Shown here: positions 3,327-62,023 of the stretch, in pieces
Layout of the letters: each line of letters opens with the position of its first letter
How positions within the stretch are numbered: position 1 is the first letter of the stretch
NCBI GenBank assembly: GCA_016867835.1
Contig: VGIQ01000001.1
Location: 10,094-74,093 of the forward strand
From: Calditrichota bacterium
GTDB lineage: Bacteria; Electryoneota; AABM5-125-24; Hatepunaeales; Hatepunaeaceae
Reading direction: 5' to 3'
Length of the DNA: 64,000 nt
Notes under the pieces: model-generated
What the model saw: only the letters and a program-made list of their open reading frames with translations
Databases searched by the model: none
Told to the model about the DNA's origin: nothing
Made by a program: the position numbers and the translations under genes

Positions 3327-3476
3327 TGCCAGACGGGCACTTTTTTGAAGGATAGTTGCGAATGTTAACTTTTGCTATTGCAACTATCGGTCAAAGACGC
3401 TAAATTCAACTCGTGATGTCATCGGACCTGACTGGACATCACCTTCAGCCCGGCCTTTACCCTAAGGAGAGTTGGA

Positions 3477-3524
3477 TGCCTCGTAAGTCGTCTTTAGCGG
3501 GCGCTCGATGCCGAAGATAGCCGT
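3477..3524 (+). other. 15-codon upstream ORF (MPRKSSLAGARCRR) whose stop overlaps the leuB start; possible translational-coupling uORF
   Basis: Strong SD-like AAGGAGAG sits 6 nt upstream of this ATG, not of the leuB ATG at 3508. It is in a different frame from leuB. It is not leucine-rich, so it is not a classic leu leader peptide. Confidence 0.3.
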
Positions 3525-4551: not shown

Positions 4552-5323
4552 TAATCCTAGATCTCTAAGCCTTGCCCTTAATGAGGCATCTCTTCCTATG
4601 TATTTGAAACCATGAATTTTAACAGACCTATTGTCAGGCATGATTTCGGAATCAAAGTAAGGTGCAATAGGCTGGAGATGATCGATAATGCCATTTTCTG
4701 CAAATTGAAAGACAACGCCTGCCAGGTGATCTGCCAACTGTAAGATGCGAGTGTCGTGGGAGGGACGGCAAGGTGAATACGGTTTCAATGACATTATCCA
4801 ACGGTGCCCAGCGATGCCCCTGCTGCTGGAAAGTCCTTTGCAAGCTTTGCAATATTCGGTCTTGAGTAGTTGTCCGTCGGTCGAACACAATGATTCCCTT
4901 ATGCCAAAACCCTTCGGCCCATCTCCGCTTCAAAAAGAGATTGAACCTTGAACTGAGCTGTTCGAACACCTCGTGCTCGATGGTGCTTTTCAGCGGACCA
5001 CAGGTATGCTTATCAATGATGACGCAAAAAGAACTGAAATCCCTGTGATGAAGTTGCCAAACCGACTCAATACGAGTCCATAGTGCGTTGCGATCATCGT
5101 GTGTCAGGTGCGAATAAACACCCTTTCCATGCCGCAGGTGCTTGAAATGAAACTCGACCCGTACTCCTGCATCCGGAAAGAAATCTCGTTGGATGTTTTC
5201 GATGTATTCAGTGACTTTTCGCCAGGCGCCTTCAAAGAGTGCTATGCCAGCCAGAACGTAGTGTCTGGTCGATTCCGCCCCCAAACCGGTATCACCGGAT
5301 TCATCTACGTAGAGGATATACAT
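4546..5323 (-). pseudogene. DUF3800-family protein gene, apparently frameshifted (N-terminal part in ORF 4652..5323, C-terminal part in ORF 4546..4890)
   Basis: N-terminus MYILYVDESGDTG is the DUF3800 hallmark. The conserved C-terminal segment (RILQLADHLAGVVFQF...) continues in a different frame after a C/G-tract near 4755-4770. The region is visibly lower in GC than its flanks. Confidence 0.5.
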
Positions 5324-5462
5324 TGGTTATCTCGGATAGAGTAAACGCTGGGTGGTTTCCCAACGAGGCCCCCTACGAAGCCTCTCCCAGCGTTGATATA
5401 GGATACGAAACGACTTTGTCAAAGTCAAGCAAAATCGAATCCAATGAGGTTCGCTTAACAAA

Positions 5463-6737
5463 TTGACCCTCGCTGAGAAGATCCTCGCCCGCCATTCGGG
5501 TCGCGACCGCGTCAAGCCCGGCGACCTAATGATGGCGAAGGTCGATATGGTGCTCGGCACCGACGTCACCGTCCCGCTCTCGGTCGAGGTTTTTCGCTCG
5601 ATGGGCGCGACGCGCCTTTTCAATCCGGCGAAGGTCGTCCTCGTCAACGACCACTTCGTCCCGGCCAAGGACGTCCAGGCCGCGACGCTCTCGCAGACGA
5701 TGCGCAACTTTGCCCGCGAGCAGGGTGTCGTTCATTACTACGAGGTCGGAAGGTCGGGGATCTGCCATTCGCTTCTGCCCGACGAAGGCCTCGTCGCACC
5801 GGGGGACCTCGTTGTCGGCGCGGACAGCCATACCTGCACTTACGGCGCGTTAGGCGCCTTCTCAACCGGCATCGGCTCGACCGATATGGCTTGCGCCTGG
5901 GCATTGGGGGAACTCTGGTTCCGCGTTCCGGAGACGATCCGGATCGACCTCTATGGTGAACCGGCTCCCTATGTCGGGGCCAAGGACATCATCCTAAACG
6001 TTATCGGAACACTTGGCGTCGATGGCGCGATCTATCAAGCACTTGAATTCGGCGGTGAAGCAATCCGCCAAATGACCATGGACGGACGGATCACGCTCTG
6101 CAATATGGCTATCGAAGCCGGCGCCAAAGCCGGCCTGATCGAACCGGACTGGACCACCGCAGCCTATATTGATGAAATCCGTCGCCGCAAGGGGCGTCCG
6201 GCGATGCCCGAAGCAGCCCTCGACCTGACCAGCGATCCCGATGCGCGTTATACGCGGCGGCTTGCCTTCGACGTCGGCTCCATCCGGCCTACCGTGGCGG
6301 TTCCCTACCTGCCATCGAACATTGCACCGGCGGCTGCGTTGGGTGACATCAAAGTTGATCAGGTAGTGATTGGCTCCTGCACCAACGGACGGATCGAGGA
6401 CTTCCGTATCGCTGCCGAAGTGTTGGGCGAAAGGCCGGTTCATCGGGAAGTTCGGCTGCTCATCATCCCGGCTACGCCTGAAATCTATAAAGCGCTCATC
6501 AGCGAAGGTCTTGCCGCGCAATTTATGGAAGCCGGAGCGGTTATCACGCCACCTACCTGCGGGCCTTGCATCGGCGGGCATATGGGGGTTCTGGGTGCCG
6601 GTGAGACCGGCCTCTTCACCACCAACCGCAACTTTCACGGCCGCAACGGGCATCCCGATTCACGGGTCTATCTGGCTGGACCGGCAGTGGCCGCGGCGAG
6701 CGCGGCAGCCGGGAGGATCGTTGAGCCGGAGAGATGA
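5463..6737 (+). CDS. leuC: 3-isopropylmalate (or homo-)aconitase-type dehydratase large subunit, archaeal-type (~420 aa)
   Basis: TTG start. Aconitase-family motifs are present (MTLAEKIL..., DSHTCTYGALGAF, CTNGRIED, PPTCGPCIGGHMG). 424 aa matches the LeuC/HacA type. Confidence 0.8.
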   Translation: MTLAEKILARHSGRDRVKPGDLMMAKVDMVLGTDVTVPLSVEVFRSMGATRLFNPAKVVLVNDHFVPAKDVQAATLSQTMRNFAREQGVVHYYEVGRSGICHSLLPDEGLVAPGDLVVGADSHTCTYGALGAFSTGIGSTDMACAWALGELWFRVPETIRIDLYGEPAPYVGAKDIILNVIGTLGVDGAIYQALEFGGEAIRQMTMDGRITLCNMAIEAGAKAGLIEPDWTTAAYIDEIRRRKGRPAMPEAALDLTSDPDARYTRRLAFDVGSIRPTVAVPYLPSNIAPAAALGDIKVDQVVIGSCTNGRIEDFRIAAEVLGERPVHREVRLLIIPATPEIYKALISEGLAAQFMEAGAVITPPTCGPCIGGHMGVLGAGETGLFTTNRNFHGRNGHPDSRVYLAGPAVAAASAAAGRIVEPER

Positions 6738-7285
6738 TGCGCTCACTGACTCTCTCGCCTGCCAATAGAGCAAAGTTCACTATGACCAACGATAGAGAAG
6801 AGCGGATCACCTTCGAACGGCTCTCCGACAGCCTCGGTTTCCGGGTCAACTATCTGGCGCGGCTGATGCGCAGTGAACTGGAGTTTCGCATCAAGCCGTT
6901 TGGGTTGAACGGCACTACCTGGCCGGTGATGGTTGCGCTCTACGAACAGGACGGTCAGTCCCAAAGCGATATTGGCGACCGCACCGGAATGGACGCGCCG
7001 ACGATGACCCGGGCTCTCGACAACCTCGAAGCGAGACGCTACATCGACCGCTACCGCGACGACCACGACCGCCGGGTGCAATTGATCCTGTTGACCCGCG
7101 AAGGTCGCAGCGTCGCCATCCGCGCAGCGCAAATCGGTGAGGAAATCAACCGCGAAACAGTCCAGTTGCTGTCGGAAGAGGAGCGGGAGATTCTTTGGAG
7201 CAGCGTCTCGCGAATCGAGACTGCTCTGAAGAGCCTGATCGAAAAACGGGTGGATTATTATGCTGACGAGGCGAGTCGGGTATGA
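6734..7285 (+). CDS. MarR-family transcriptional regulator
   Basis: Winged-helix region (LTRALDNLEARRYIDRYRDDHDRRVQLILLTREG) typical of MarR. ATGA overlap with the leuC stop. Inserted between leuC and leuD. Confidence 0.7.
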   Translation: MMRSLTLSPANRAKFTMTNDREERITFERLSDSLGFRVNYLARLMRSELEFRIKPFGLNGTTWPVMVALYEQDGQSQSDIGDRTGMDAPTMTRALDNLEARRYIDRYRDDHDRRVQLILLTREGRSVAIRAAQIGEEINRETVQLLSEEEREILWSSVSRIETALKSLIEKRVDYYADEASRV

Positions 7286-7354
7286 CCATTGTGTGGGTTA
7301 GCGGGCAAGCGAGTAGACGGGTAAGCGAGTAGCGGGCTTCAGAATTAGGGAGGT

Positions 7355-7852
7355 TTGTTGGGAGTTGCTTTCAAATACGGCGATTCGGTCGATACCGACG
7401 TCATCATTCCGGCGCGTTATTGCACCCGGTTCGATGCGGTTTATCTGGCGCAGCACTGCCTCGAAGACCTCGACGCGACATTTGCCAGCCGGGTCCGCCC
7501 CGGAGACATCGTCGTGGCAGGCGAGAACTTTGGCTGTGGCTCGTCGCGCGAGAACGCGCCGATTGCCATCAAAGGCGCCGGTGTTGCGGCGGTTATCGCA
7601 AAATCGTTCGCCCGCATTTTTTACCGCAACTCGATCAACATCGGCCTGCCGATCCTGATCTGTCCCGACGCCGTTGAAGGCATTCAAGACGGTGATAAAG
7701 TCGAGGTCGCACCCGCCAACGGGACGATTCGCAACCATACCCGGGGCGGGGAGTGGCAGGCAGCGGCGTTTCCGGCCGAGATCCAGGGCATCATCGAAGC
7801 CGGGGGACTGGTTGGCTATGTACGAGCCAGACTCCAAAACGCAGCCTCTTGA
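7355..7852 (+). CDS. leuD: 3-isopropylmalate dehydratase small subunit (LeuD, short archaeal-type)
   Basis: [22 protein letters not shown] and [14 protein letters not shown] are LeuD swivel-domain motifs. 165 aa. Confidence 0.8.
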
Positions 7853-8053
7853 CGCTCGTGGAGGGCGGGTTTCAACCCCCCAATAACGGATAGGAATGTC
7901 TGCCCTTCTGCACGGGCGACGCTGTGCAAAATCACCCAATCAAACGTCGGATACTGTGCCAAACCACACCTATACTGCATCAGTCCGTCCGGTATAGGCC
8001 AATAGCCTTGTAGATAGCCCGTTAGAATCACGTAAGTATCTAATAATCAGTTA

Positions 8054-8069
8054 TGGAACGATATTTGCA
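8054..8069 (+). promoter_or_regulatory. candidate sigma-54 (-24/-12) promoter TGGAAC-N5-TTGCA upstream of the catabolic operon
   Basis: TGGAACgatatTTGCA matches the TGGCAC-N5-TTGC spacing (GG and GC 10 nt apart). It sits about 55 nt upstream of the 8125 start in an AT-richer intergenic region. A sigma-54 activator is encoded in the window. Confidence 0.4.
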
Positions 8070-8124
8070 AATGCGACCTTTACAGATACAAGTGTGTGCA
8101 AAAATTGCATAACAGGGCATTTTA

Positions 8125-9399
8125 ATGACTGGTATCGTGCCTGACCATAAGCCCGGATCAGGTCCTTATGGTGCGGCTTACATCCCTTATGGCGCCTGGG
8201 GCGGCAGTTGGTTTCCGGCCTGGCACACCAGCGCGTTGGCTGAGATCGATATCGGACGGTTCGCCGCTGAGGCTTTTGCCTTTGTCCTTGGGCAGCGCGG
8301 CATCCGCACTGTCGACCTCGACTACCTGATCAGTGGCTCGACGATTCCCTGGCTTTTCAAGTTCTGGGGTTCGCCCTATCTGTCGCATCTCTTCGGCAAA
8401 CGACTGCCCGGTTTTCACCTCGAGCAGGCCTGTGCGACGGGATTGCAGGTGATCGTCAAGGCGACCGCACAGGTTGCCTCGGGCAGCCACCGCGCGGTCG
8501 GGGTGCTCGCCTTCGACAAGACGAGCAACTCGCCGGCTTCGATCTTCCCAAACCAAGGCAGTTACCGCCGGACGGAAGTCCAAAGCGACGTGTGGGACAA
8601 TTTCGGCTTCGACCCGTCGGCGGGAGCCTCCGGACGGGCGCAAGCCTCCGGCGAGACTTCGATGATTGCTTGCGCCGGGCGAGCCTGCCGTCAGTTTAAA
8701 TTGGACTTCAGCGAGATTGCCGATCTCGCCTGGCATCGTTATCAGCAGTATTTCGACGCCAGGTCCTCGGGCTGGCTGGACCGGATTCTCTTCCCGATGT
8801 CGGTTCTCGACGTGCGTGGGCAGAAGATCGGAACCGTCGATGAAGACACCGGCGTCCGACGCTACGAATCGGCGGATCAGATCCGAGCCGAGCGGCAGAT
8901 CGACGCCGGGGTCAGCGCCGGAACCCAGACCCACGCCTCGGACGGAATGTTCGGGATGGTCGTAACCGACCGGGAGGGTTTGTCGCAATTCAGTTCCCGC
9001 CCTGAGATCGCGATTCAACTGCTTGGCGCAGCCGAATATCGCACCGCGCTTGGAATGATGCCCGAAGCCCCCGCGTTAGCCGCCGCGCAACTCCTGAACC
9101 GGCTCGGCCTGAAGATCGGCGATGTTACGACCTTCTACGACCACAATCCATTCGCTGTTAACGACTTGATCTTCGCGCGGCACTTCGGGATAGATTGGCA
9201 CCCGATGAACGAGACCGGCTGCCCGCTTGTCTATGGCCATCCGCAAGGTCCAACATTGGTGCGGGTCACCGTCGAAGCCCTTGAAAGAACCGTTGAAAAG
9301 GGCGGCGGACTCGCCCTGGTCTTCGGCTGTGCAGCCGGTGATGTCGGGATAGCCGCACTCTTTCGGGTCGATGATCATAAAGCGGGGGGATCAAAGTGA
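8125..9399 (+). CDS. divergent thiolase-family protein
   Basis: Active-site-like EQACATGLQV (thiolase N-terminal Cys region) and C-terminal GHPQGPT ... FGCAAGDVG resemble thiolase His/Cys signature regions. GTGA overlap with the next gene. Confidence 0.55.
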   Translation: MTGIVPDHKPGSGPYGAAYIPYGAWGGSWFPAWHTSALAEIDIGRFAAEAFAFVLGQRGIRTVDLDYLISGSTIPWLFKFWGSPYLSHLFGKRLPGFHLEQACATGLQVIVKATAQVASGSHRAVGVLAFDKTSNSPASIFPNQGSYRRTEVQSDVWDNFGFDPSAGASGRAQASGETSMIACAGRACRQFKLDFSEIADLAWHRYQQYFDARSSGWLDRILFPMSVLDVRGQKIGTVDEDTGVRRYESADQIRAERQIDAGVSAGTQTHASDGMFGMVVTDREGLSQFSSRPEIAIQLLGAAEYRTALGMMPEAPALAAAQLLNRLGLKIGDVTTFYDHNPFAVNDLIFARHFGIDWHPMNETGCPLVYGHPQGPTLVRVTVEALERTVEKGGGLALVFGCAAGDVGIAALFRVDDHKAGGSK

Positions 9400-11450
9400 A
9401 GACGATGCGACAGGCGACAACGGAGACGCTCGGACTGGGTCATCCGCTCGCCTTCTTCAAAAATGGCCGGCTGCCGGTTACCGCGGCTGAACTGGTTGAA
9501 CGAGTCTTTGGCGGCGCCACTGGCCGCGGCGCGCTCGTCATCAGCGGCGGAAACGGGATCGTCGGGTCGGGCAAGGCGATGCAGTTGGGAGCGCGGCTGC
9601 TCGATTACGGTGTGCCGGTAGTGACCCTCGACCTGCCTGATGCTCCACCCGGGCTGAAAGGGCAAATGGACGGCCTCATCCGGTCGTTCGGGCCAGCCGG
9701 GGCTGCTGCCATTGCAGCCAATATCGTCCAAATGACTTACGACGGCAGGCGCCTACCCGCGACCTTGACCCGGTTCAACCCACGATTCGTCCTCGAGGCG
9801 ATTCCCGAAGTGCTCGCCATCAAGCGGGCGCACTATGCGCTCTGGCGCGAGGTCTATCCAGAGATCACCATCCGGTCGGTTACGTCCGGCTTCCCGAGCC
9901 GGGAACTCGGGGTGGGGGTCTTCCATCCCTCGTTTCCGCATCCGATCAACAAGGTCTGGGAGGTGGTAGAGGATTCCCCATCCGATGCGGCACGCTTGCT
10001 CTGGGCGCTCGGGCTGGTGCCGGTGCCGGTGGGGGATTACTGGTCGTTCATTCTCGATGTGCTCTTCTGCGGTGTAACGCTTGCGGCACTCCGGTTTCAG
10101 GAAGCGGCAAATATGCCGGCCTGGAAGGTAGATAAACTGGTACGGCTATTGGTGGGACCGAATCCCCTCCGGGCGCATGATGCCATTGGCGCGGGGGCGT
10201 CGTTCCTCACCTGGTCGTGCCTCTATCATCTGGCCGGGGAGTATGGCGACCTCTTTCAACCGGCGGCGGAACTCGAACGCCGCAAGGCTTCGGGCGAGAC
10301 GTGGTATTCCTCGTTTAGGCCGGTAGTGGACCGGCCGTTCACGGACGGCGATCGCCTCGAAGCCTGGATTCTGGGGCCGTTGCTGCAGATGACGAGCCTC
10401 ATCCTGCGCGAGTCGCGAGCCCACCTGGCACACATCAACGCCATCGGGGAAATGTGTGCACAGTTCACCAGAGGAGTTCCGGTGCTGGCACGGTCGTTAG
10501 GAACGACAAGGGTAATCGAAATAGTAGAGCGATATCACCGTCTCCATCCCGAGGCTGCCACGAGGGCGTGGCATCCCGAGGCTTTTTTGGCGCTTGAAAG
10601 CCCCGAAGGCGCGATGCTCTATGTCAACGCCGGGCACGACGGGACGGTCGGAGTGGTGACGATCAGCCGGGAGGCGCTGAACGGCGATGTCATCGCCGAA
10701 TTGAACCGCGCTTTCGACTGGTTGATCGCAGAGGGTATCGAACGGGTGATCCTGTCCGGCGACTTCCACCTTTCGACGCAGATGATCGGCGCCGATACCG
10801 GCGAATTCTATCCAGCCCTTACGGACGAGCAAGCCGGCTTCAACCTCTCCAGCGAGTGGACCCGCACCGCGCGGCGGCTCTTCGATGGATTCAAGGTCAG
10901 TGTCGGTTTCATCGGCGGCAAGCGATGCCTCGGCGGGATGCTCGAACTGATGGAACATTGCCACTTCGTAGTCGCGGAGCGGGATACTCAGTTGGGACTG
11001 CCCGAAGTGACTCTGCCGGTCGTGCCGGGAATGGACGGGACGCATATTCTCTTTCGCCGCGCAAAAGAAGCCGATTGGAGCCGTGTGGCGCAACTCTTGA
11101 TGACCGGCAAGGCGGTGAAAGCGGCTGATGCCGTCGGATGGCTCTGCGACCGGGTCGGGACGACGGACGAAGCGCTAGCCCAAACGTGGGGGTTGGCTAT
11201 GAATGGATCAGCGCCGGAACGATCCTTGCGCCGGGAGAGCCTCAAACTGTCGGCCGGACTGTTCGAAGCGGTGGAGGCATCAACTGGTGCTGCAGGACGA
11301 CAGGCGATTGCCGAGTCGGCACGGGACTGCGTGGGAATCGATTATGAAACTGCACTCGAACGACAAGCGCGACATTCTGCCGGTTTTATGATCGGTGAGG
11401 CATGTCGGAAAGGGGCGGTGGGATCCGCCGCCAGGCGGGTGCTGGGATAA
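9396..11450 (+). CDS. fused 3-hydroxyacyl-CoA dehydrogenase (N-terminal) / enoyl-CoA hydratase (C-terminal) protein
   Basis: N-terminal Rossmann region (ISGGNGIVGSGKAMQLGARLL). C-terminal crotonase-like region (GVVTISREALNGDV ... GGKRCLGGMLELMEHCHFVVAE). 684 aa. Confidence 0.65.
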   Translation: MKTMRQATTETLGLGHPLAFFKNGRLPVTAAELVERVFGGATGRGALVISGGNGIVGSGKAMQLGARLLDYGVPVVTLDLPDAPPGLKGQMDGLIRSFGPAGAAAIAANIVQMTYDGRRLPATLTRFNPRFVLEAIPEVLAIKRAHYALWREVYPEITIRSVTSGFPSRELGVGVFHPSFPHPINKVWEVVEDSPSDAARLLWALGLVPVPVGDYWSFILDVLFCGVTLAALRFQEAANMPAWKVDKLVRLLVGPNPLRAHDAIGAGASFLTWSCLYHLAGEYGDLFQPAAELERRKASGETWYSSFRPVVDRPFTDGDRLEAWILGPLLQMTSLILRESRAHLAHINAIGEMCAQFTRGVPVLARSLGTTRVIEIVERYHRLHPEAATRAWHPEAFLALESPEGAMLYVNAGHDGTVGVVTISREALNGDVIAELNRAFDWLIAEGIERVILSGDFHLSTQMIGADTGEFYPALTDEQAGFNLSSEWTRTARRLFDGFKVSVGFIGGKRCLGGMLELMEHCHFVVAERDTQLGLPEVTLPVVPGMDGTHILFRRAKEADWSRVAQLLMTGKAVKAADAVGWLCDRVGTTDEALAQTWGLAMNGSAPERSLRRESLKLSAGLFEAVEASTGAAGRQAIAESARDCVGIDYETALERQARHSAGFMIGEACRKGAVGSAARRVLG

Positions 11451-11533
11451 GGGAAGGAAGCACCTGGCGGGCTGACTCCTCCAGGTGTTAAAGTGGGCGG
11501 GAATGATCCCACCCTCCAAGAGCCATCGGCAAG

Positions 11534-12979
11534 TTGGAAATCGGGAGCATCGTGGAGTTTCGCGAACCGATCGACCAGTTGGTGAACAGCCCGCAAAGGT
11601 TCACCTCACAACTCAAGTTCCCTGTGCCGGAGCGAATCAAAATCTACGATTCGACCCTGCGCGACGGCGAACAGATGCCGGGCGTCGCCTTTTCGCCGGG
11701 GCAGAAGTATCAGGTCGCCAAGGCGCTCTCGGAGATCGGCTGCGACATCCTCGACCTCGGTTTCCCCTATGCTGCGCTCTCCGATCGCTATGCACTACAG
11801 ATGATCGTCCAAGCCAAGCGGCTCGGCGAAATCCGCAAGGAGGTCGATCTGCTGGTGATGTGCCGTTCGACCCAGCAGGACATCGACGCGACCATTCAAT
11901 CGCTGCGCGACATCGACGTCGATATCAACGAGGTGACTTTCTTCATTTTCACCTCAGGCTCCGACCTGCACCTGAAGTATAAGATTGGCAAGACGCTCCT
12001 GAAGCGGGATGGGATCGATCCGGCGAAGTGGCTCGATCAGCCGGTCTCCTACTATCGCGATGCCAATATCCGGATGCAGTGCGACGCGATCCGGTATGCT
12101 CGCGAAAGAGGCGTCGAGCGGATTGAATTCGGCGGCGAAGACGGCTCCCGCGCCGACCTCGACTATACCATCGAACTTGCAAAGGCCGGCTACGATGCCG
12201 GCGGGACGCGCTACAGTTTTCCCGATACGGTCGGCTGCTTCACTCCGGAAGGCGTCGATTATTACATTCCGCGCATCGTCGCCGAGTTCCCGAATCGCGA
12301 TCTGGTCTGCCACTTTCATAATGACTTCGGTCTCGCGACGATCAACACCTTGCGCGCGATGTCGCATGGCCTCAACGTCCCGACCTGCACCGCCAACGGA
12401 ATGGGCGAACGGGCTGGAAACGCGCCGCTGCATCAGGTTACGGTTGCGTTGAAACTGCTCTACGGCGTTCACCTGCCACGTTTTCGTTACGAGAAGTTGC
12501 GTGAACTGAGGCAACTGGTCGAGGAGTTTTCGGGAATCCCGGTCTCGGCGCACGAGCCGGTCATAGGTGAGGGGGTCTTTACCCACGAGTCGGGCATTCA
12601 CACCGCGGGACTCTTAATCGACGCCTCGATCTATCAGGTGATTCCACCGGAATTAGTCGGTGCGCGCATCCGGTATGTCTTCGGCAAGCACTCCGGGCTG
12701 GCTGCGGTTAAGGCAGTGCTTGAGAAGCCCGAGTACCGGTCTGGCCTTGAGCGGGACGGAGTCGAAGTGAACGACGACCTGATCGAAGCGGTTACGCTCT
12801 TCGTCAAGGATGCCCGCCAGAAGCGGACCCGGAGCGACCAGTTCACCTCGATCACCGAGGCCTACTACCGCGAATACGACCGACTCGGCATATCGGAATT
12901 GCGGCTGGTGGAACTCGCTTCGACTATCGGGCGGCTGCTGAAAGAAGGCCACTTCAACCATGTGGAGAGGAAGAAGTAG
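11534..12979 (+). CDS. 2-isopropylmalate / citramalate / homocitrate synthase-family (DRE-TIM metallolyase) enzyme
   Basis: IYDSTLRDGEQMPGVAFS is the LeuA/CimA/NifV hallmark. HFHNDFGLATINTL is the metal-binding HxH region. 481 aa. The true start may lie upstream of 11534. Confidence 0.7.
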   Translation: MEIGSIVEFREPIDQLVNSPQRFTSQLKFPVPERIKIYDSTLRDGEQMPGVAFSPGQKYQVAKALSEIGCDILDLGFPYAALSDRYALQMIVQAKRLGEIRKEVDLLVMCRSTQQDIDATIQSLRDIDVDINEVTFFIFTSGSDLHLKYKIGKTLLKRDGIDPAKWLDQPVSYYRDANIRMQCDAIRYARERGVERIEFGGEDGSRADLDYTIELAKAGYDAGGTRYSFPDTVGCFTPEGVDYYIPRIVAEFPNRDLVCHFHNDFGLATINTLRAMSHGLNVPTCTANGMGERAGNAPLHQVTVALKLLYGVHLPRFRYEKLRELRQLVEEFSGIPVSAHEPVIGEGVFTHESGIHTAGLLIDASIYQVIPPELVGARIRYVFGKHSGLAAVKAVLEKPEYRSGLERDGVEVNDDLIEAVTLFVKDARQKRTRSDQFTSITEAYYREYDRLGISELRLVELASTIGRLLKEGHFNHVERKK

Positions 12980-12981
12980 TA

Positions 12982-13050
12982 GGACAGGCATTCCTGCCTG
13001 TCCGGAATTTGGCATGGGGATGGGACGGGACAGACAAGAATGTCTGTCCT
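12982..13050. repeat. composite REP-like element: paired hairpins GGACAGGCATTCCTGCCTGTCC and GGGACAGACAAGAATGTCTGTCC nested in an outer palindrome
   Basis: Perfect 9-bp stems with 4-nt loops. The same family recurs at 32420-32476, 32556-32640 and 40383-40455. Confidence 0.7.
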
Positions 13051-13077
13051 ACTGTACAGATTAGATAGGAGTTCACA

Positions 13078-14232
13078 ATGTCGCTTGACTGGCTGCCTCG
13101 CGAAGGGGGATTGAAGGACCATGACCTCTGGGGGGATGAGTTCTTTGGCGGTGAAGCCCCCACCGTCCGTTATGAACTGAAACCGGTTACAGCCCCTGAC
13201 GGCAACGTTGCCGAAGGCTTGTTCACGGCCTGGATCACGCTCGATAACCCGGCGCAGTTCAATTCCTACACCACGCACATGGTGAAGGGCGTCATCGCCG
13301 GGTTTCACAAAGCCTCGATGGATCGGCGGGTGGTGGCGATCGTCTTTACCGCGGTCGGCGAACGCGCCTTCTGCACCGGCGGGAATACCCGGGAGTATGC
13401 CGAATACTACTCCGGCCGGCCGCAGGAATACGGCCTCTATATGGACCTCTTCAACGCGATGGTCGATGCCATTCTGAACGCCAAGAAGCCGGTCATCTGC
13501 CGGGTCAACGGGATGCGCGTGGCGGGCGGTCAGGAGATCGGAATGGCCTGCGACCTCACCATCGCAGCCGATACGGCCGTCTTCGGCCAGGCCGGTCCGC
13601 GACACGGTTCGGCGCCGGATGGCGGATCGACCGACTTCCTCCCCTGGATGCTGCCACTCGAGCAGGCGATGTGGAGCTGCATCAGTTGCGAACTCTGGAG
13701 CGCTTACAAGATGGCGCGCTACGGCCTGGTGTCGAAGGTTGCGCCGGTGCTGGTTCGCGCGTCGGGATCGGAATCCCAACCTGCGCGCGAAAAGTTCATC
13801 CGCAACCCTTTGGTCATCACCGACCGCTATGTCGAAGAGGGCGAGATCGTCTATGGCGAACCGGTCACCGGCGCTGCTGCAGCGTTGGCTAAAGAGCAGT
13901 TTAAGGCAGCGACCTACGACTTCAGCCGGCTCGACGCCGAGGTCAACAGACTGGTCTGGACCTTCACTAACCTTTTCCCGGGCTGCCTCATCAAGTCGAT
14001 CGACGGCATCCGGCAGAAGAAGAAGTTCTGGTGGGATCAGACCAAACTTGCCAACCGGCACTGGCTGGCGACGAATATGATGGGCGAAGCGTTCCTCGGC
14101 TTCCACGCCTTCAATACCAAGAAACAGACCGGGAAGGACACTATCGATTTCATCAAGTTCCGGCAGTTGCAAGCGGAGGGGCATCCGTTCGACGCGGAAC
14201 TGATGGAAGCCGTGTTGGGAAAGAAAATCTAA
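13078..14232 (+). CDS. crotonase-superfamily enzyme of ring-hydrolase length (candidate 6-oxocyclohex-1-ene-1-carbonyl-CoA hydrolase-like; specific function unproven)
   Basis: Crotonase core (AFCTGGN ... KPVICRVNGMRVAGGQEIGMACDLTIAAD). 384 aa is much longer than canonical 260-aa hydratases and matches the long ring-cleaving members. The 460-aa minus-strand ORF 12865..14247 is its shadow. Confidence 0.55.
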   Translation: MSLDWLPREGGLKDHDLWGDEFFGGEAPTVRYELKPVTAPDGNVAEGLFTAWITLDNPAQFNSYTTHMVKGVIAGFHKASMDRRVVAIVFTAVGERAFCTGGNTREYAEYYSGRPQEYGLYMDLFNAMVDAILNAKKPVICRVNGMRVAGGQEIGMACDLTIAADTAVFGQAGPRHGSAPDGGSTDFLPWMLPLEQAMWSCISCELWSAYKMARYGLVSKVAPVLVRASGSESQPAREKFIRNPLVITDRYVEEGEIVYGEPVTGAAAALAKEQFKAATYDFSRLDAEVNRLVWTFTNLFPGCLIKSIDGIRQKKKFWWDQTKLANRHWLATNMMGEAFLGFHAFNTKKQTGKDTIDFIKFRQLQAEGHPFDAELMEAVLGKKI

Positions 14233-14299
14233 CCACAAAGAACACAAAGATCACAAAGATCATAGGGAATACTTGGTGTTCTTTGTGCTCTTCGTGGTG
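14230..14299. repeat. palindromic gene-junction repeat (AACTAACCACAAAGAACACAAAGA ... TGTTCTTTGTGCTCTTCGTGGTG), copy 1
   Basis: Imperfect 25-bp inverted repeat with an 18-bp loop. It begins within the stop codon of the upstream gene. The same family occurs at 16884, 17825, 18661 and 24202. Confidence 0.7.
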
Positions 14300-14310
14300 A
14301 AAAGGAAAAA

Positions 14311-15057
14311 ATGGGCATTCTGAAAGGGAAAACCGCCATTGTCACCGGCGGGTCGTTAGGGATCGGCGCCTCAGTCGCCCTCAAACTCGCCTCCGACGGC
14401 GCCGATGTGGCGCTCAACTACCGCAAGCATGCGGACGAAGCCGAAGCTGTCGCCGAACAGATCCGCACCATGGGCCGCCGGGCGCTGGTGATCCAGGCCG
14501 ACACATCGTCCTTTGCCGATGCCGAAGCGATGGTCGCTCGCGTCAAGGCGGAATGGGGCCGGGTGGACATCCTCGTCTGTAACGCGGGGATCACCAGAGA
14601 CGCGGTGCTCTGGAAGATGACCGAAGAGCAGTGGGACGCGGTGATCGGGACGAACCTGAAGGGCTATTTCAATTACGTCCGCGCGGCTGCGCCGGTGATG
14701 CGCGAGCAGAAGTACGGGCGGATCGTCTGCGTCACCTCGATCAATGGGCTGCGCGGCAAGTTCGGCCAGTCGAACTACGCGGCCTCCAAAGCCGGCATCC
14801 ACGGGCTGGTGAAGAGCGCCGCCAAGGAATTAGGGCGGTCGGGCGTCACCGTCAACGCCGTCGCGCCGGGGATGATCCTGACCGATATGATGGCTGCGCT
14901 GCCGGAGGAGGTCAAGCAGAAGGCGGTGGACGAGACGGCGGTGGGCAGATTGGGGGAGCCGGACGACATCGCGCATGTGGTCAGTTTCTTCTGCAGTGAC
15001 TTCGCAAAGCATGTGACGGGGGAGATTATCAAGGTGGATGGGGGGCAGTATATCTGA
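14311..15057 (+). CDS. short-chain dehydrogenase/reductase (3-oxoacyl-ACP reductase-like; candidate hydroxyacyl-CoA dehydrogenase)
   Basis: TGGSLGIGASVA (TGxxxGIG), NAG, and Y..K catalytic motif (SNYAASKAG). 248 aa. Confidence 0.85.
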   Translation: MGILKGKTAIVTGGSLGIGASVALKLASDGADVALNYRKHADEAEAVAEQIRTMGRRALVIQADTSSFADAEAMVARVKAEWGRVDILVCNAGITRDAVLWKMTEEQWDAVIGTNLKGYFNYVRAAAPVMREQKYGRIVCVTSINGLRGKFGQSNYAASKAGIHGLVKSAAKELGRSGVTVNAVAPGMILTDMMAALPEEVKQKAVDETAVGRLGEPDDIAHVVSFFCSDFAKHVTGEIIKVDGGQYI

Positions 15058-17366: not shown

Positions 17367-17371
17367 TCCCG

Positions 17372-41960: not shown

Positions 41961-43373
41961 TCAGTAGCCAAAACTGATCGTGAACGTCAGAGCCACCGCG
42001 CTTCCCGCTGGAACCGGCACCGGAAAGAGGACCCGGTCGGAGGCCTCCCGAATTGGCTCGACGGAATGGCCGCCCGCCTCGGCAGACTCCACAGTCGCAT
42101 AGCCATAAATACGCTGTTCGACATGCACTACGGCTTCGCGGGCTCCGCCGTTGCGCAGGTCGACGCGCCAGGTCTCAGAGTGGCGGTCGCGCGTAGGGCG
42201 GGATTGCGTAAGTCGCGTCCGCCGGGCGGTAAGATCGAAAGCGCCTCCGAGGTCGAGTTCGATCGTTCCCCCGGCCGGTGTGCCAGGGAGAAAATCCTGC
42301 CCGGCGAAGATGAGCGCTCCCGAATTGTCCCGGCGATAGAATCCGACATCACCCTCGGGCAAGGGGCGCGCAGACTTGCCTGTGCCGGCGCCGCTCTGAA
42401 ACGAGACCTTCACCCGCACTTCCCGGCTGTCGAGCAGATGCGGGAAGAGGTAGCGACGCTCATACTTGAATACAACAGGTTCGAATGCTGGCACCTGAAG
42501 CGTCTGCCCGGCCGATAGGCTGACCGGGCGGGGCAGAGTGTAGCGGTAGTATTCGTCGAATCGCTCCCCCGAAACTTGAGCTGCTGCCTCCGGTCGGCCA
42601 AATTTCTCCCGCCCTTCCGACGCTTCGTCGCCGCTTCCGCCTTCCGGGTCGTCGGACCGGTGCACTTTCCCGGCGACCAGCGTCACCGTCGCATCCTCCA
42701 AATCAAGTTCGAGGTCGTTGGCGATGGTGAAATTCGCACTCAGCGACAGCGTCTCGTCGCTTAGGTCTGCCCGGTAGTCGCACATCCAGGTGATGCCGGT
42801 GGTCAGGTAACTGATCTCGACAAGACGACCTTTGACGCCTTGAGCCGCATTGACTTCCCAGCGCAGCGTAGGTCGGGTGTAGAGGCCGTCGGGCAAGCGC
42901 GGGTAGAACATCTCCTTCAATTTACCTCGCTCAACGACCTGAACAATGACATCGCCGGTGTCGGGCTGCAGAAAAAGGTGCGTCGCGTCGAAGCGAAGCA
43001 ACCGGCCGGCATAGGTAGCATCGTCGGCGCTGAACGAGAACCACTGCCCGCGGTAGCGATCCATCAGTTTCTCCTGGCTAACCAGGTCGTAGTGGTAAGC
43101 GAGCGAGAGCGTGCGAATGTTTTCGCCGCCCCGTCCCGACGGCACCACGTTGGCGGTATGGCCGAAGATGCCGGGAGCGATGCCGGTGAAGTCGATCGTC
43201 TGACTGCCCCGCACCAGATCGACCTGCCTGGTGTCGCGAACCTGTGCCAAATCGCGATTATAGATGTCGATCGCAACGGTCGATTCGGGTGCACCTTTTA
43301 GGGAAGCCGGATCGACTGCAGCAATAAGAATGGCAAGGATTGCGGTCAGACGCATCGTGTCATCCTTTATCAT
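41961..43373 (-). CDS. hypothetical secreted protein (possibly DUF4139-like)
   Basis: N-terminal signal peptide (LTAILAILIAAV). 470 aa. Family guess is low confidence. Confidence 0.4.
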   Translation of the reverse strand: MIKDDTMRLTAILAILIAAVDPASLKGAPESTVAIDIYNRDLAQVRDTRQVDLVRGSQTIDFTGIAPGIFGHTANVVPSGRGGENIRTLSLAYHYDLVSQEKLMDRYRGQWFSFSADDATYAGRLLRFDATHLFLQPDTGDVIVQVVERGKLKEMFYPRLPDGLYTRPTLRWEVNAAQGVKGRLVEISYLTTGITWMCDYRADLSDETLSLSANFTIANDLELDLEDATVTLVAGKVHRSDDPEGGSGDEASEGREKFGRPEAAAQVSGERFDEYYRYTLPRPVSLSAGQTLQVPAFEPVVFKYERRYLFPHLLDSREVRVKVSFQSGAGTGKSARPLPEGDVGFYRRDNSGALIFAGQDFLPGTPAGGTIELDLGGAFDLTARRTRLTQSRPTRDRHSETWRVDLRNGGAREAVVHVEQRIYGYATVESAEAGGHSVEPIREASDRVLFPVPVPAGSAVALTFTISFGY

Positions 43374-44728
43374 AATGCCTCGTCCGGGCCGGCCGGATCG
43401 TAGTATTGTTCATCCAATTCGTTAGATTCATTTGCAAGGTGGTATTTGCTGCCGCGTCGGTCGCCGATCCGGACGAGGATGCCGGATTCGATAAGGCTTT
43501 GCAGCCGTCGCCGGGCGGTCGCTTCACTGCACTTAAACCGGCGTGCCCAGAGGCTGCTTGTCAGGCCGGCGGGATGTTCAAACAGGAACTGCTCCCATTC
43601 GGTCGGGATGTCGGGATAGCGCCTTGCCGGTTCGTCCGCAGAGGCGTCTCCCGCGATGCCGCCGTCGAAAATGATCGCCTTGGCCGGGATCGAGGTGCCG
43701 GCCGTAAGAATGAGCGCCCGGGCGATGACGTTCTCCAGTTCGCGGACATTGCCGGGCCAGACGTAAATATCGAGTCGGGCGAGGGCTTCGCGGAAGAGTG
43801 TCGCCCGGGGTCTTGCGGGATTGGCGGCGTTGAGCCGTTCAAGGATATGATTTGCGAGCAACGTTATATCACCGTTGCGACGACGCAGCGGCGGCAGATG
43901 TATCGGCAGGACAGCTATCCGGTAATAAAGGTCGCGGCGAAACCGGCCCGCGGCGACGGCTTCATCGAGTGGAGCATTGGCGATCGCTATGAGCCGAAAA
44001 CTGACCGCCTTGATCCCACCACCGACGCGCTGCAGTTCCCCCGTCTGGAGGACTCGCAGGAGCGCGGCTTGAGCCCGGGGCGAAAGTTCTCCAACTTCGT
44101 CCAGAATAACCGTTCCTCCGGCGGCAGACTCGAGCCGCCCCGAATATCCACCTTTGGCCGCACCGGTGAAGGCGCCGGCTTCGAATCCGAAAAGATCCGA
44201 CTCGATCAAGCCCTCCGGTATGGCGCCACAGTTGACGAACGTGCAGGGATTATTCGACCTACTGCTATGCCGGTGAATCAAGCGCGCAACCAATTCCTTA
44301 CCGGTGCCGGTTTCGCCCGCAATCAGAACCGGGAGATCGCTGGCGGCGGCGCGTCCTGTTAGTGCCAATGCCTGCCGCAAGAGCGGTGCACGACCTATCG
44401 CAATGCTGCTCCACTCGTCGATCTCAAAATGGCCGTCCCGCTGAAGAGCGCCGCTGTCGTAAAGCCCCATGCGCAGTGACTCGCGCACTTCACCGTCTGT
44501 CGGCTGATGGTCGGAGTGCACCGCGATAAGAATGTCGTCTGAAGGCGGTGTCAGCCGGGCTTCATTCAGATCGACACAGGTGAGCAGGTTATCGCAGACC
44601 CGGTGAACGGGATGACGAGCCGCCTTCGGACGGCGGGTTGATGGTATCCAGGAGTCGATCAGCGTCGGAAGTTCCCGTGCCAGATCCGGCGAGGTGCGCA
44701 AAAGAAACTCATAAGCATGAAGCCGCAC
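43370..44728 (-). CDS. sigma-54-dependent transcriptional activator (bacterial enhancer-binding protein)
   Basis: AAA+ Walker A GETGTGKELVAR. ESDLFGFEAGAFTGA is GAFTGA-like. Arg finger and C-terminal HTH present. ~130-aa N-terminal domain of unknown type. Confidence 0.8.
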   Translation of the reverse strand: MRLHAYEFLLRTSPDLARELPTLIDSWIPSTRRPKAARHPVHRVCDNLLTCVDLNEARLTPPSDDILIAVHSDHQPTDGEVRESLRMGLYDSGALQRDGHFEIDEWSSIAIGRAPLLRQALALTGRAAASDLPVLIAGETGTGKELVARLIHRHSSRSNNPCTFVNCGAIPEGLIESDLFGFEAGAFTGAAKGGYSGRLESAAGGTVILDEVGELSPRAQAALLRVLQTGELQRVGGGIKAVSFRLIAIANAPLDEAVAAGRFRRDLYYRIAVLPIHLPPLRRRNGDITLLANHILERLNAANPARPRATLFREALARLDIYVWPGNVRELENVIARALILTAGTSIPAKAIIFDGGIAGDASADEPARRYPDIPTEWEQFLFEHPAGLTSSLWARRFKCSEATARRRLQSLIESGILVRIGDRRGSKYHLANESNELDEQYYDPAGPDEAL

Positions 44729-61962: not shown

Positions 61963-61977
61963 TACGTCCCGCTGGCA
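61963..61977 (+). promoter_or_regulatory. sigma-54 promoter TGGCAC-N5-TTGC upstream of flgB
   Basis: cTGGCACggcggTTGCTt, 47 nt upstream of the flgB start. Followed by a hairpin (ttgctttg...caaagcaa). Confidence 0.55.
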
Positions 61978-62023
61978 CGGCGGTTGCTTTGTTTCGCTGC
62001 GAAGGAAAAGCAAAGCCTGACCG

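What the first reader, a model, noticed from the sequence alone, without database searches (positions are those of the whole stretch)
8040..8125. Sigma-54-type promoter in front of the catabolic supercluster
TGGAACgatatTTGCA at 8054-8069 has the exact -24/-12 spacing, in the only sizeable AT-rich gap before the 8125 gene. A sigma-54 activator with an uncharacterised N-terminal sensor domain is encoded at 43370-44728. Aromatic catabolic operons are frequently sigma-54 controlled.
Basis: partly seen in the sequence, partly recalled or inferred. Interest (0 to 1): 0.5.

Follow-up and report, generated by a model that had tools for sequence, protein, structure and literature searches.

The report
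Likely sigma-54 promoter before benzoyl-CoA genes

Summary
The motif TGGAACgatatTTGCA is at 8054-8069 (+), with canonical GG-N10-GC spacing. It lies in a 272-nt, locally AT-rich gap, 55 nt before the ATG at 8125.

Evidence for a real sigma-54 promoter:
- A matrix built from 175 published sigma-54 sites scores it 17.6 bits, the 76th percentile of real sites.
- Only 0.064 such hits are expected in the whole window and 2e-4 in this gap.
- The only better hit (19.7 bits) lies 36 nt before flgB, a classic sigma-54 target.
- One diverged syntenic relative (L102) keeps the element inside a 55-nt conserved block (40/55 identical; shuffles reach at most 31). The rest of the gap does not align.

Evidence against or limiting:
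- About 14 other syntenic relatives lack the site.
- It lies inside a conserved leu-like/benzoyl-CoA cluster, not at its head.
- It can be assigned only to 8125-15057: divergent thiolase, 684-aa enoyl-CoA-hydratase fusion, isopropylmalate-synthase-like gene, Oah ring hydrolase and a short-chain dehydrogenase.
- The activator at 43370-44728 is a genuine sigma-54 activator (GAFTGA intact). It is 35 kb away, convergent, co-operonic with unrelated genes, and its three orthologs sit in non-catabolic contexts.

Verdict: probably a real sigma-54 promoter (about 0.72), a new member of a known kind, of modest interest.

The parts
8054..8069 (+). Core sigma-54 promoter element TGGAAC-gatat-TTGCA (GG 8055-8056 = -24; GC 8067-8068 = -12)
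   Evidence: Sequence read. One mismatch to TGGCACGNNNNTTGCW. The 19-mer 8052-8070 scores 17.6 bits, the 76th percentile of curated sites. Expected chance hits in this gap: 1.8e-4.
8051..8105 (+). 55-nt block conserved with the ortholog L102 (2433-2487). It covers about -29 to +26 relative to the predicted start and contains the -24/-12 element plus the downstream motif CAGA..AAGnGTGTGnAAnAAT.
   Evidence: 40 of 55 positions identical without gaps; 200 shuffles give a mean of 27 and a maximum of 31. The 23-nt core is 19/23 identical. The rest of the gap does not align.
8078..8082 (+). Predicted transcription start, about 11-13 nt downstream of the GC. This gives a 5' UTR of about 45 nt before the ATG at 8125.
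   Evidence: Inference from the standard geometry of sigma-54 promoters; not measured.
7922..7936 (+). Candidate upstream activator site 1, cTGTGCAAAATCACc (TGTG-N6-CAC dyad), centred near -151
   Evidence: Direct-repeat family D2. Evidence is weak: by my estimate, a 12/14 repeat pair in a 200-nt region arises by chance with P of about 0.06.
7954..7968 (+). Candidate upstream activator site 2, cTGTGCCAAACCACA (perfect TGTG-N6-CACA dyad), centred near -119 and 32 bp from site 1
   Evidence: It is the only exact TGTGNNNNNNCACA in the window, against 0.42 expected. It is not recognisably conserved in L102.
8125..15057 (+). Genes most plausibly driven by the promoter: divergent thiolase (8125-9399), 684-aa protein with a C-terminal enoyl-CoA hydratase domain (9396-11450), isopropylmalate-synthase-like gene (11534-12979), 6-oxocyclohex-1-ene-1-carbonyl-CoA hydrolase Oah (13078-14232) and a short-chain dehydrogenase (14311-15057)
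   Evidence: Pfam and NCBIfam scans: TIGR03200 scores 560.7 bits against a cutoff of 464. PDB sequence searches. Gaps within the block are at most 98 nt, and a 608-nt gap follows. No convincing + strand terminator lies within it. The operon extent is an inference.
6734..7285 (+). MarR-family regulator encoded between the aconitase-like subunit genes; the nearest local regulator and a possible co-regulator
   Evidence: Pfam MarR_2 at E = 1.4e-15. Present at the same position in L016, L018, L027, L028, L102 and L106.
8060..8068 (+). GATATTTGC, which overlaps the -12 element. It belongs to a GATAKTTGC motif that also forms the inverted repeat 3351-3388 upstream of the leuB-like gene.
   Evidence: 4 hits in the window against 0.69 expected; 0 of 100 shuffles reach 4. 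L102 has GATAGTTGC in its -12 region. L012 has AGTTGC-N19-GCAACT upstream of its leuB-like gene.
43370..44728 (-). Sigma-54 enhancer-binding protein. It shows that the organism uses sigma-54 but is not demonstrably the cognate activator.
   Evidence: Sigma54_activat at E = 1.4e-56, with GETGTGKE and GAFTGA present. There is no HTH_8 domain, only a weak winged-helix-like C-terminus, and residues 1-105 have no family match. Ortholog contexts are unrelated to catabolism.
61973..61988 (+). Internal positive control: perfect sigma-54 consensus TGGCACGGCGGTTGCT, 36 nt before the flgB ATG at 62024 (flgB-flgC-fliE)
   Evidence: It scores 19.7 bits, the 95th percentile of curated sites.

Best explanation
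The element at 8054-8069 is a functional sigma-54 (RpoN) promoter internal to a conserved leu-like/benzoyl-CoA gene cluster of an uncultured Calditrichota bacterium.

Proposed mechanism: sigma-54 RNA polymerase binds the GG (-24) and GC (-12) elements as a closed complex. An ATP-hydrolysing enhancer-binding protein, not identified here, binds upstream. The two TGTG-N6-CAC(A) dyads at about -119 and -151 are possible binding sites. The activator remodels the complex so that transcription starts near 8080.

The transcript would encode the divergent thiolase, the 684-aa enoyl-CoA-hydratase fusion, the isopropylmalate-synthase-like enzyme, the ring-opening hydrolase Oah and a short-chain dehydrogenase (8125-15057). 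Together these are a ring-cleavage and beta-oxidation block of the anaerobic benzoyl-CoA pathway.

Shown: the motif, its statistical rarity, its position, its conservation in one ortholog, and the use of sigma-54 by this organism (an activator gene plus a perfect flgB promoter).

Inferred: sigma-54 binding, the start site, the activator and its sites, and the extent of the operon.
For: - Exact -24/-12 geometry with one mismatch to the 12-base consensus.
- 17.6 bits on a matrix from 175 curated sites, the 76th percentile of real sites.
- Expected hits at that score: 0.064 per window and 1.8e-4 in this gap. The next best non-flagellar hit scores 13.3 bits. The empirical false-positive ceiling is about 2e-6 per position.
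- The site is intergenic, co-oriented with the gene, and 55 nt from the ATG.
- The only stronger hit is the perfect site before flgB-flgC-fliE.
- A sigma-54 activator with an intact GAFTGA motif is encoded in the window. RpoN is present in Caldithrix abyssi, of the same phylum (supplementary table of PMC12316311).
- L102 shares the synteny at 70-77% protein identity for the aconitase subunits and 47% for MarR. It carries TGGCGCGATAGTTGCA 81 nt before its ATG, inside a 40/55 conserved block (0 of 200 shuffles reach it), while the rest of the gap does not align.
- No sigma-70-like + strand promoter lies in 7200-8400.
- No RNA family or stable RNA structure accounts for the conservation.
Against: - About 14 other syntenic or orthologous loci at 62-74% thiolase identity have no site above about 10 bits upstream of the thiolase gene. 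These include the closest thiolase relative, L109. Some have gaps of only 55-80 nt, which implies co-transcription with the upstream genes.
- The L102 score alone (14.8 bits) is not significant across the roughly 113 upstream regions searched, where about 0.16 chance hits are expected.
- No activator gene lies next to the promoter.
- The candidate upstream sites are statistically weak and not conserved in L102.
- rpoN itself was not seen, because it lies outside the window.
- No terminator was found between the upstream gene and the site, so read-through could also supply transcription.
- The -12 region overlaps a GATAKTTGC motif that recurs in a non-sigma-54 context.
Confidence: 0.72

Rival explanations
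1. The match is a chance occurrence in an AT-rich spacer. The thiolase block would then be transcribed by read-through from the upstream leu-like genes, or from a housekeeping-sigma promoter of a type the simple scan cannot recognise in this phylum.
For: Most syntenic relatives lack any sigma-54-like site, and some have gaps of only 55-80 nt. No terminator lies after 7852. At the 1-mismatch level, 10 of 100 whole-window shuffles give at least 2 hits. Promoter consensus sequences in Calditrichota have not been characterised (my own knowledge).
Against: Expected hits at this score in this gap are 1.8e-4, and at most about 5e-4 using the empirical ceiling. The two top hits in the window both lie in gaps, co-oriented with and close to start codons. 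The element is retained in L102 within otherwise unalignable DNA.
Confidence: 0.15
2. The conserved 55-nt block is chiefly an operator for a conventional transcription factor, for example the MarR-family protein at 6734-7285. Such a factor would recognise GATAKTTGC-type half-sites, and the resemblance to a sigma-54 promoter would be incidental. This factor could also act together with sigma-54.
For: GATAKTTGC is over-represented: 4 hits against 0.69 expected. It forms a perfect 9-bp inverted repeat upstream of the leuB-like gene at 3351-3388, with a counterpart in L012. ATATTTGCA (8061-8069) has an imperfect inverted partner TGCAAAAAT at 8097-8105. The MarR gene is conserved in the cluster. 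Conservation extends well beyond the -24/-12 element, to about +26.
Against: A factor site would not explain the conserved TTATGG with exact GG-N10-GC spacing. By my estimate (per-position rate), the chance that a 55-nt block contains a 17.6-bit sigma-54 match is about 1e-4 or less. The L102 partner half-site is degenerate (TGGAATAAT). Loci that have MarR but no sigma-54 site show no shared motif in this gap.
Confidence: 0.1
3. The conservation reflects a cis-acting RNA element (leader, riboswitch or attenuator) or a small upstream ORF in the 5' region of the thiolase mRNA.
For: A 19-codon ORF (8053-8112) and an imperfect hairpin (8050-8069 pairing with 8097-8113) can be drawn.
Against: Folding energy is no better than in shuffles: z = -0.14 in the window and +0.39 in L102, and the two structures differ. 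Rfam gives no hit even at E = 1. In L102 the ORF stops after three codons.
Confidence: 0.02

Closest known systems
Sigma-54 promoters of anaerobic aromatic-degradation operons in Geobacteraceae (Geotalea daltonii bss and hbs; Geobacter metallireducens bam genes with the BamVW system)
   Same: A -24/-12 promoter in front of genes for anaerobic aromatic catabolism. The GG/GC elements have the same spacing. The sites confirmed by 5'-RACE are TGGCATGTCTTCTGCT and TGGCATGGCTCCTGCT (PMC11497800).
   Different: In those systems the activator genes lie directly upstream and divergent, and sigma-54 dependence was tested experimentally. Here no adjacent activator exists, nothing has been tested, the phylum is Calditrichota, and the genes driven belong to the lower (ring-cleavage and beta-oxidation) part of the pathway rather than to an activation step.
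Sigma-54-dependent one-component activators of peripheral anaerobic aromatic pathways in Aromatoleum (EtpR, PheR/PdeR, RedR1/RedR2)
   Same: Enhancer-binding proteins that switch on catabolic operons from sigma-54 promoters in response to aromatic substrates (PMC4630880, PMC10715001, PMC10084136).
   Different: Those regulators are encoded next to their target operons. According to my own knowledge of the family they carry recognisable sensor domains and a Fis-type HTH. The window's activator has a 105-residue N-terminus with no family match, no HTH_8 domain, and lies 35 kb away.
BzdR/PN control of the bzd-type benzoyl-CoA operon in Azoarcus/Aromatoleum
   Same: The enzyme families are the same: bzdN and bzdO score above the TIGR03190 and TIGR03191 cutoffs, and Oah and Dch-like genes are present.
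   Different: PN is controlled by the dedicated repressor BzdR, encoded next to the operon (PMC6678401), and is sigma-70-type as far as I recall. No BzdR-type regulator was noted among the window proteins I scanned, and the only recognisable promoter in the cluster is sigma-54-type and sits in front of the oah-containing block.
Sigma-54-dependent flagellar rod promoters (flgB in Desulfovibrionales, Vibrio, Campylobacter and others)
   Same: The window's own flgB promoter (61973-61988) matches this class perfectly. RegPrecise lists flgB sigma-54 sites such as CATGGAACACACCTTGCTT, which has the same TGGAAC variant as the 8054 site.
   Different: This comparison serves only as a positive control for sigma-54 use in this organism. 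It does not bear on the function of the 8054 site.

Membership tests
Sigma-54 (RpoN)-dependent -24/-12 promoter | GG and GC dinucleotides separated by exactly 10 nt, within TGGCAC-N5-TTGCW | tested here: met
   TGGAACgatatTTGCA, with GG at 8055-8056 and GC at 8067-8068; one mismatch at -23.
Sigma-54 (RpoN)-dependent -24/-12 promoter | Score within the range of curated or validated sigma-54 promoters and rare under a background model | tested here: met
   17.6 bits, the 76th percentile of 175 curated sites. Expected 0.064 per window and 1.8e-4 in the gap.
Sigma-54 (RpoN)-dependent -24/-12 promoter | Located upstream of and co-oriented with a gene, at a workable distance | tested here: met
   The site lies in the gap 7853-8124, with 55 nt between the element and the ATG at 8125. 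L102 has 81 nt.
Sigma-54 (RpoN)-dependent -24/-12 promoter | rpoN encoded in the genome | not testable with these tools
Indirect support: an activator with GAFTGA, a perfect flgB site, and RpoN in Caldithrix abyssi.
Sigma-54 (RpoN)-dependent -24/-12 promoter | A cognate enhancer-binding protein with binding sites about 80-150 bp upstream | tested here: inconclusive
   Two TGTG-N6-CAC(A) dyads lie at about -119 and -151, but they are statistically weak and not conserved in L102. No activator gene is adjacent. The only one in the window has unrelated ortholog contexts.
Sigma-54 (RpoN)-dependent -24/-12 promoter | Conservation of the element in orthologous upstream regions | tested here: inconclusive
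   Conserved in L102 within a 40/55 block. Absent in about 14 other syntenic loci. Closer relatives' contigs end before the relevant position.
Sigma-54 (RpoN)-dependent -24/-12 promoter | Transcription start about 12 nt downstream of the GC, dependent on sigma-54 and ATP hydrolysis by an activator | not testable with these tools
   This requires 5'-RACE, dRNA-seq or in vitro transcription.
Bacterial enhancer-binding protein (gene 43370-44728) as the cognate activator of this promoter | AAA+ sigma-54 interaction domain with Walker A and GAFTGA | tested here: met
   PF00158 at E = 1.4e-56, with GETGTGKE and GAFTGA in the translation.
Bacterial enhancer-binding protein (gene 43370-44728) as the cognate activator of this promoter | Genomic linkage or conserved co-occurrence with the target operon | tested here: not met
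   35 kb away, convergent, and translationally coupled to a DUF4139 gene. The three orthologs (41-43% identity) lie in non-catabolic contexts.
Bacterial enhancer-binding protein (gene 43370-44728) as the cognate activator of this promoter | C-terminal Fis-type HTH (HTH_8) typical of DNA-binding activators of this class | tested here: not met
   No PF02954 hit. There is only a weak winged-helix-like match (EutK_C, 23 bits, below its cutoff). Ortholog P0242 carries MarR_2.
MarR-type operator (rival) | A palindromic site recurring at regulated promoters of the cluster | tested here: inconclusive
   GATAKTTGC is enriched and forms an inverted repeat at 3351-3388 and in L012. At 8060 only an imperfect partner exists. 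No binding data are available.

The most novel reading that the evidence does not exclude
The sigma-54 promoter is gated by a second regulator whose GATAKTTGC half-site overlaps the -12 element. The same motif forms the inverted repeat upstream of the leuB-like gene. Under this reading a MarR-type factor and a distant, atypical activator (the rare protein at 43370 with a winged-helix C-terminus, or an unseen one) jointly couple a leu-like 2-oxoacid module to the lower benzoyl-CoA pathway in Calditrichota. That would be a regulatory and metabolic linkage not described for any anaerobic aromatic degrader.
Probability: 0.1. Interest if true: 0.5.

Novelty: new member of a known kind. Interest (0 to 1): 0.27.

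Why it matters
If real, this would be among the first specific sigma-54 promoter predictions outside flagellar genes in the uncultured phylum Calditrichota. It would indicate that the ring-cleavage and beta-oxidation block of a bzd-type benzoyl-CoA pathway is under tight, activator-dependent control, as in Geobacteraceae and in the peripheral pathways of Aromatoleum. That gives a handle for asking when sediment and lake Calditrichota switch on aromatic degradation, for example by looking for read starts near 8080 in metatranscriptomes. It does not change what is known about how sigma-54 promoters work.

Tried and rejected
1. RNA element: Rfam gave nothing at gathering thresholds over the whole window or at E up to 1 over 7800-8200. 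There are no tRNA genes. RNA folding of the window and L102 regions was no better than shuffles and gave different structures.

2. Upstream ORF 8053-8112 (19 codons): not conserved, because L102 has a stop after 3 codons.

3. Sigma-70-type promoter or terminator in 7200-8400: none on the + strand.

4. Phylogenetic footprinting across 80 genome loci, 25 metagenome loci and 20 contigs fetched by protein identity: the site was found only in L102.

The L117 tail was aligned and is inconclusive.

6. The 2-mismatch site at 52962-52977 (-): it lies inside the end of a SIS-domain gene among housekeeping genes and is probably chance.

7. Additional sigma-54 sites in the other 20 gaps of the cluster: none of 11 bits or more on the + strand. 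A weak 11.4-bit hit lies at 5445-5427 (-).

8. The activator's neighbourhood (40200-46000) and its orthologs' contigs: no strong sigma-54 site that would reveal its real target.

9. The heptamer repeats upstream of the flgB promoter were first considered as an activator site. They were rejected because the same kind of repeat follows many stop codons in this genome.

10. My first, memory-based matrix was replaced by one built from published sites. The conclusions did not change.
Full report
**Source and context.** The thiolase-like protein encoded at 8125-9399 is 100% identical to a protein of a metagenome-assembled "Calditrichaeota bacterium". Domain and family scans give the following gene map.

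| Coordinates | Strand | Assignment |
|---|---|---|
| 3508 | + | isopropylmalate/isocitrate-dehydrogenase-like |
| 4652-5323 | - | DUF3800 |
| 5463 | + | aconitase-family large subunit |
| 6734 | + | MarR regulator |
| 7355-7852 | + | aconitase small subunit |
| 7853-8124 | | 272-nt gap |
| 8125 | + | divergent thiolase |
| 9396 | + | 684-aa protein; only the C-terminal part matches enoyl-CoA hydratases |
| 11534 | + | isopropylmalate-synthase-like |
| 13078 | + | Oah, the ring-opening hydrolase (TIGR03200, 560.7 bits, cutoff 464) |
| 14311 | + | short-chain dehydrogenase |
| 15666 | + | classical thiolase |
| 17372 | + | DUF2889 |
| 17900 | + | dienoyl-CoA-hydratase-like |
| 18739, 22912, 24287, 25569 | + | bzdN, bzdO and the two BcrAD-type ATPase subunits |
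| 27258 | + | ferredoxin/NAD(P)H oxidoreductase-like |
| 30614 | + | Zn-dependent alcohol dehydrogenase family |
| 32751, 33893 | + | 2-oxoacid:ferredoxin oxidoreductase |
| 34854, 35444 | + | MobA, XdhC |
| 36442-40289 | + | 4-hydroxybenzoyl-CoA-reductase-like enzyme |

It is a bzd-type anaerobic benzoyl-CoA pathway.

**The observation.** TGGAACGATATTTGCA is at 8054-8069 (+). GG and GC are separated by 10 nt, as in TGGCAC-N5-TTGCW. The surrounding 200 nt have 38-44% GC against about 60% in the flanks. With at most one mismatch to TGGCACGNNNNTTGCW the window has two hits, this one and a perfect one at 61973-61988.

**Statistics.** A memory-based matrix gave 16.2 and 19.0 bits for these two sites. 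I replaced it with an empirical one. From the S2 Table of PMC12316311 I took 152 RegPrecise 19-mers and 23 well-known E. coli promoters, which I put in register by hand, giving 175 unique sites. The authors describe that table as a compilation of validated sigma-54 promoters.

| Site | Score | Percentile of training sites (leave-one-out) |
|---|---|---|
| Window 8052-8070 | 17.6 bits | 76th |
| flgB site | 19.7 bits | 95th |
| Next best hit in the window | 13.3 bits | not computed |

Under a first-order Markov model, 0.064 hits of at least 17.5 bits are expected in the window (both strands) and 1.8e-4 in this gap on the + strand. Scanning 1.01 Mb of related loci gave four hits of at least 17.5 bits. 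This caps the empirical false-positive rate at about 2e-6 per position, and some of those four are probably real. One example is L003 11290-11308, which lies 34 nt before a small gene whose product has a hydrophobic, signal-peptide-like N-terminus. TGGAAC variants occur among curated sites, for example CTTGGAACGCTCTTTGCTC and CATGGAACGCTGTTTGCTT.

**Does this organism use sigma-54?** The perfect site at 61973-61988 lies 36 nt before the ATG of flgB (62024), which is followed by flgC and fliE. This is a classic sigma-54 target. The window encodes an enhancer-binding protein with Walker A and GAFTGA motifs. A supplementary table of PMC12316311 lists a full-length RpoN in Caldithrix abyssi, of the same phylum. 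rpoN of this MAG could not be examined.

**Conservation.** The thiolase/684-aa pair is widespread in Calditrichota, LCP-89, Zixibacteria and many other MAGs. In a dozen Calditrichota loci the whole order IPMDH-like, aconitase large, (MarR), aconitase small, thiolase, 684-aa, IPMS-like, Oah, SDR is kept. The promoter is therefore internal to a conserved cluster. The gap before the thiolase gene ranges from 55 to more than 400 nt and is filled with lineage-specific repeats. None of these loci has a site above about 10 bits.

The exception is L102, a 2.7-kb metagenome contig with the same synteny. It has TGGCGCGATAGTTGCA (14.8 bits) 81 nt before its ATG. L102 is as diverged as the others: 70% and 77% protein identity for the aconitase subunits, 47% for MarR, and 70-77% identity in coding DNA. 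Its gap does not align with the window's gap except for one ungapped 55-nt block, window 8051-8105 against L102 2433-2487. That block is 40/55 identical, while 200 shuffles give a mean of 27 and a maximum of 31. Its 23-nt core, TTATGGnnCGATAnTTGCAAnTG, is 19/23 identical. The block runs from about -29 to +26, so it contains more than the polymerase contact region.

**What else could the block be?**
- Not an RNA element. Folding z-scores are -0.14 and +0.39, the structures differ, and Rfam gives no hit.
- Not a conserved small ORF.
- No sigma-70-like + strand promoter or terminator is present.
- One complication is real. GATAKTTGC, which overlaps the -12 element, occurs four times in the window against 0.69 expected. 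Two copies form a perfect inverted repeat, GATAGTTGC-N20-GCAACTATC, upstream of the leuB-like gene. L012 has AGTTGC-N19-GCAACT at the equivalent place. A conventional regulator, plausibly the MarR in the cluster, may therefore bind over the -12 region. That would not explain the conserved TTATGG at the exact spacing, so I treat it as a possible co-regulator rather than a replacement.

**Activator.** Two 14-bp dyads lie 32 bp apart at about -151 and -119: TGTGCAAAATCACC (7923-7936) and TGTGCCAAACCACA (7955-7968). The second is the only exact TGTG-N6-CACA in the window. These are the right positions for activator sites. However, the pair is only marginally unlikely by chance (about 0.06 by my estimate), and L102 shows no counterpart.

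The activator at 43370-44728 is 35 kb away on the other strand. It is translationally coupled to a DUF4139 gene and preceded by a GGDEF response regulator. Beyond them lie housekeeping genes such as tmk and lgt. It lacks the usual Fis-type HTH, and residues 1-105 match no family. Only three full-length orthologs were found, at 41-43% identity. The two that could be read sit beside endonuclease V, a secreted FG-GAP protein and unknown genes. I put the chance that it is the cognate activator at about 0.1.

**Extent of the transcription unit.** Gaps within 8125-15057 are at most 98 nt. They are followed by gaps of 608, 485, 712, 484 and 798 nt, and no sigma-54 site of 11 bits or more lies in any of them. 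The short spacers from 14230 to 24260 share a palindromic element that begins right after the stop codon. This is compatible with long processed transcripts, so read-through beyond 15057 cannot be excluded. Only the five genes to 15057 can be assigned with any confidence.

The thiolase keeps the Cys/His/Cys catalytic positions in an alignment of 26 orthologs and matches solved thiolases only distantly (63 bits). The first 400 residues of the 684-aa protein have no match in the PDB.

**Comparison with known systems.** Sigma-54 control of anaerobic aromatic catabolism is established in two groups. In Geotalea and Geobacter, 5'-RACE-mapped TGGCATG-N4-CTGCT promoters precede bss and hbs (PMC11497800). 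Several peripheral pathways of Aromatoleum are also controlled this way (PMC4630880, PMC10084136, PMC10715001). The best studied bzd-type central operon is instead controlled by the repressor BzdR at the PN promoter (PMC6678401). The present case is a further member of the known class, in a new phylum and in front of the ring-cleavage and beta-oxidation block, without an adjacent activator.

**Verdict.**
- The probability that this is a functional sigma-54 promoter is about 0.72.
- The main rivals are a chance match with read-through transcription (0.15) and an operator for a conventional regulator (0.10).
- Novelty: a new member of a known kind.
- Interest: about 0.27.

Noticed in passing
window 61973-61988 (+), flgB 62024-62428, flgC 62430-62933, fliE 63138-63452: A perfect sigma-54 consensus, TGGCACGGCGGTTGCT, lies 36 nt before flgB-flgC-fliE (19.7 bits, 95th percentile of curated sites). 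Flagellar rod genes in this Calditrichota MAG are very likely sigma-54 dependent.
   Followed up: partly
window 14230-14300, 16884-16915 with 17335-17372, 17825-17885, 18665-18730, 24202-24262: Five copies of a palindromic intercistronic element start exactly at the stop codon: TAACCACAAAGAaCACAAAGAtCACAAAGA ... TCTTTGTGcTCTTcGTGGTG. They lie between genes of the oah/bzd cluster and look like REP-type mRNA hairpins or processing sites. L123 shows TAACCACGAAGACACGAAGA after its stop codon.
   Followed up: partly
window 7299-7337, 20024-20056, 25088-25136, 27187-27259, 29738-29769, 61826-61855; also the gaps of L013, L016, L018 and L022: Short tandem repeats of 7-9 nt (for example CAAGTAT x9.7, GAATGTA x4.7, GTAAGCGG x4.6, TCAAGTG x3-4) lie immediately downstream of stop codons in many intergenic spacers of this genome and of related Calditrichota MAGs. 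This is a lineage-wide spacer feature of unknown function.
   Followed up: no
window 19559-19700, inside bzdN (18739-20025): A 39-nt tandem repeat (3.6 copies, 95% matches) is inserted in frame in bzdN and encodes SPPLSG(G/R)EVREDK repeats. The repeat unit also forms GC-rich hairpins on the minus strand. BzdN is 428 aa, and its first matched stretch covers only positions 3-271 of the 377-position TIGR03190 profile.
   Followed up: partly
window 20738-22890: An HNH-endonuclease-domain gene (334 aa) and an overlapping 383-aa gene with no family match lie between bzdN and bzdO. They appear to be an insertion in the reductase operon. L106 and L107 also carry a large HNH-domain gene after the 684-aa gene.
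   Followed up: no
window 3351-3388; L012 2413-2443: A perfect 9-bp inverted repeat, GATAGTTGC-N20-GCAACTATC, lies about 120 nt upstream of the leuB-like gene. A diverged relative has AGTTGC-N19-GCAACT at the equivalent place. It is a likely operator, or a leader hairpin, for the leu-like genes.
   Followed up: partly
window 7862-7906, 11495-11520, 12980-13050, 32620-32640, 40390-40450; L110/L111 and L123 gaps: REP-like GC-rich palindromes of the type CTTGGAGGGCGGG...CCCGCCCTCCAAG, and GGACAG..AGGAATGTCTGTCC hairpins, recur in intergenic regions of this and related MAGs. Several relatives' contigs break inside them.
   Followed up: no
window 43370-44728 (-): An atypical sigma-54 activator: a 105-residue N-terminus with no family match, no Fis-type HTH, and a weak winged-helix-like C-terminus. 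Only three full-length orthologs (41-43% identity) were found in 5.8 billion proteins.
   Followed up: partly
window 8125-11450; loci L001-L080: The divergent thiolase and the 684-aa protein (400-residue N-terminus with no Pfam or PDB sequence match, C-terminal crotonase domain) form a translationally coupled pair. The pair is conserved across Calditrichota, LCP-89, Zixibacteria, Ignavibacteria, and MAGs labelled Bacteroidota, Gemmatimonadota and Planctomycetota. Its function is uncharacterised. It is absent from the otherwise similar leu-like cluster in L113 and L114.
   Followed up: partly
window 3508-7852 and 11534-12979: Leucine-biosynthesis-like genes (IPMDH, LeuC/D-like, IPMS-like) are interleaved with benzoyl-CoA pathway genes (thiolase pair, oah, SDR) in a gene order conserved across many Calditrichota MAGs. 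This hints at a functional link between a 2-oxoacid module and the lower benzoyl-CoA pathway.
   Followed up: no
window 60713-61822 (+): A bacterial protein with a eukaryote-type LIM zinc-finger domain (E = 2.4e-18) and a DA1-like peptidase region, preceded by a signal-like N-terminus.
   Followed up: no
L003 11290-11308 (+): A strong sigma-54-like site, TATGGCACCGATGTTGCAA (18.4 bits), lies 34 nt before a 159-aa gene whose product has a signal-peptide-like N-terminus, in an LCP-89 MAG. It suggests sigma-54 use in that candidate phylum as well.
   Followed up: no
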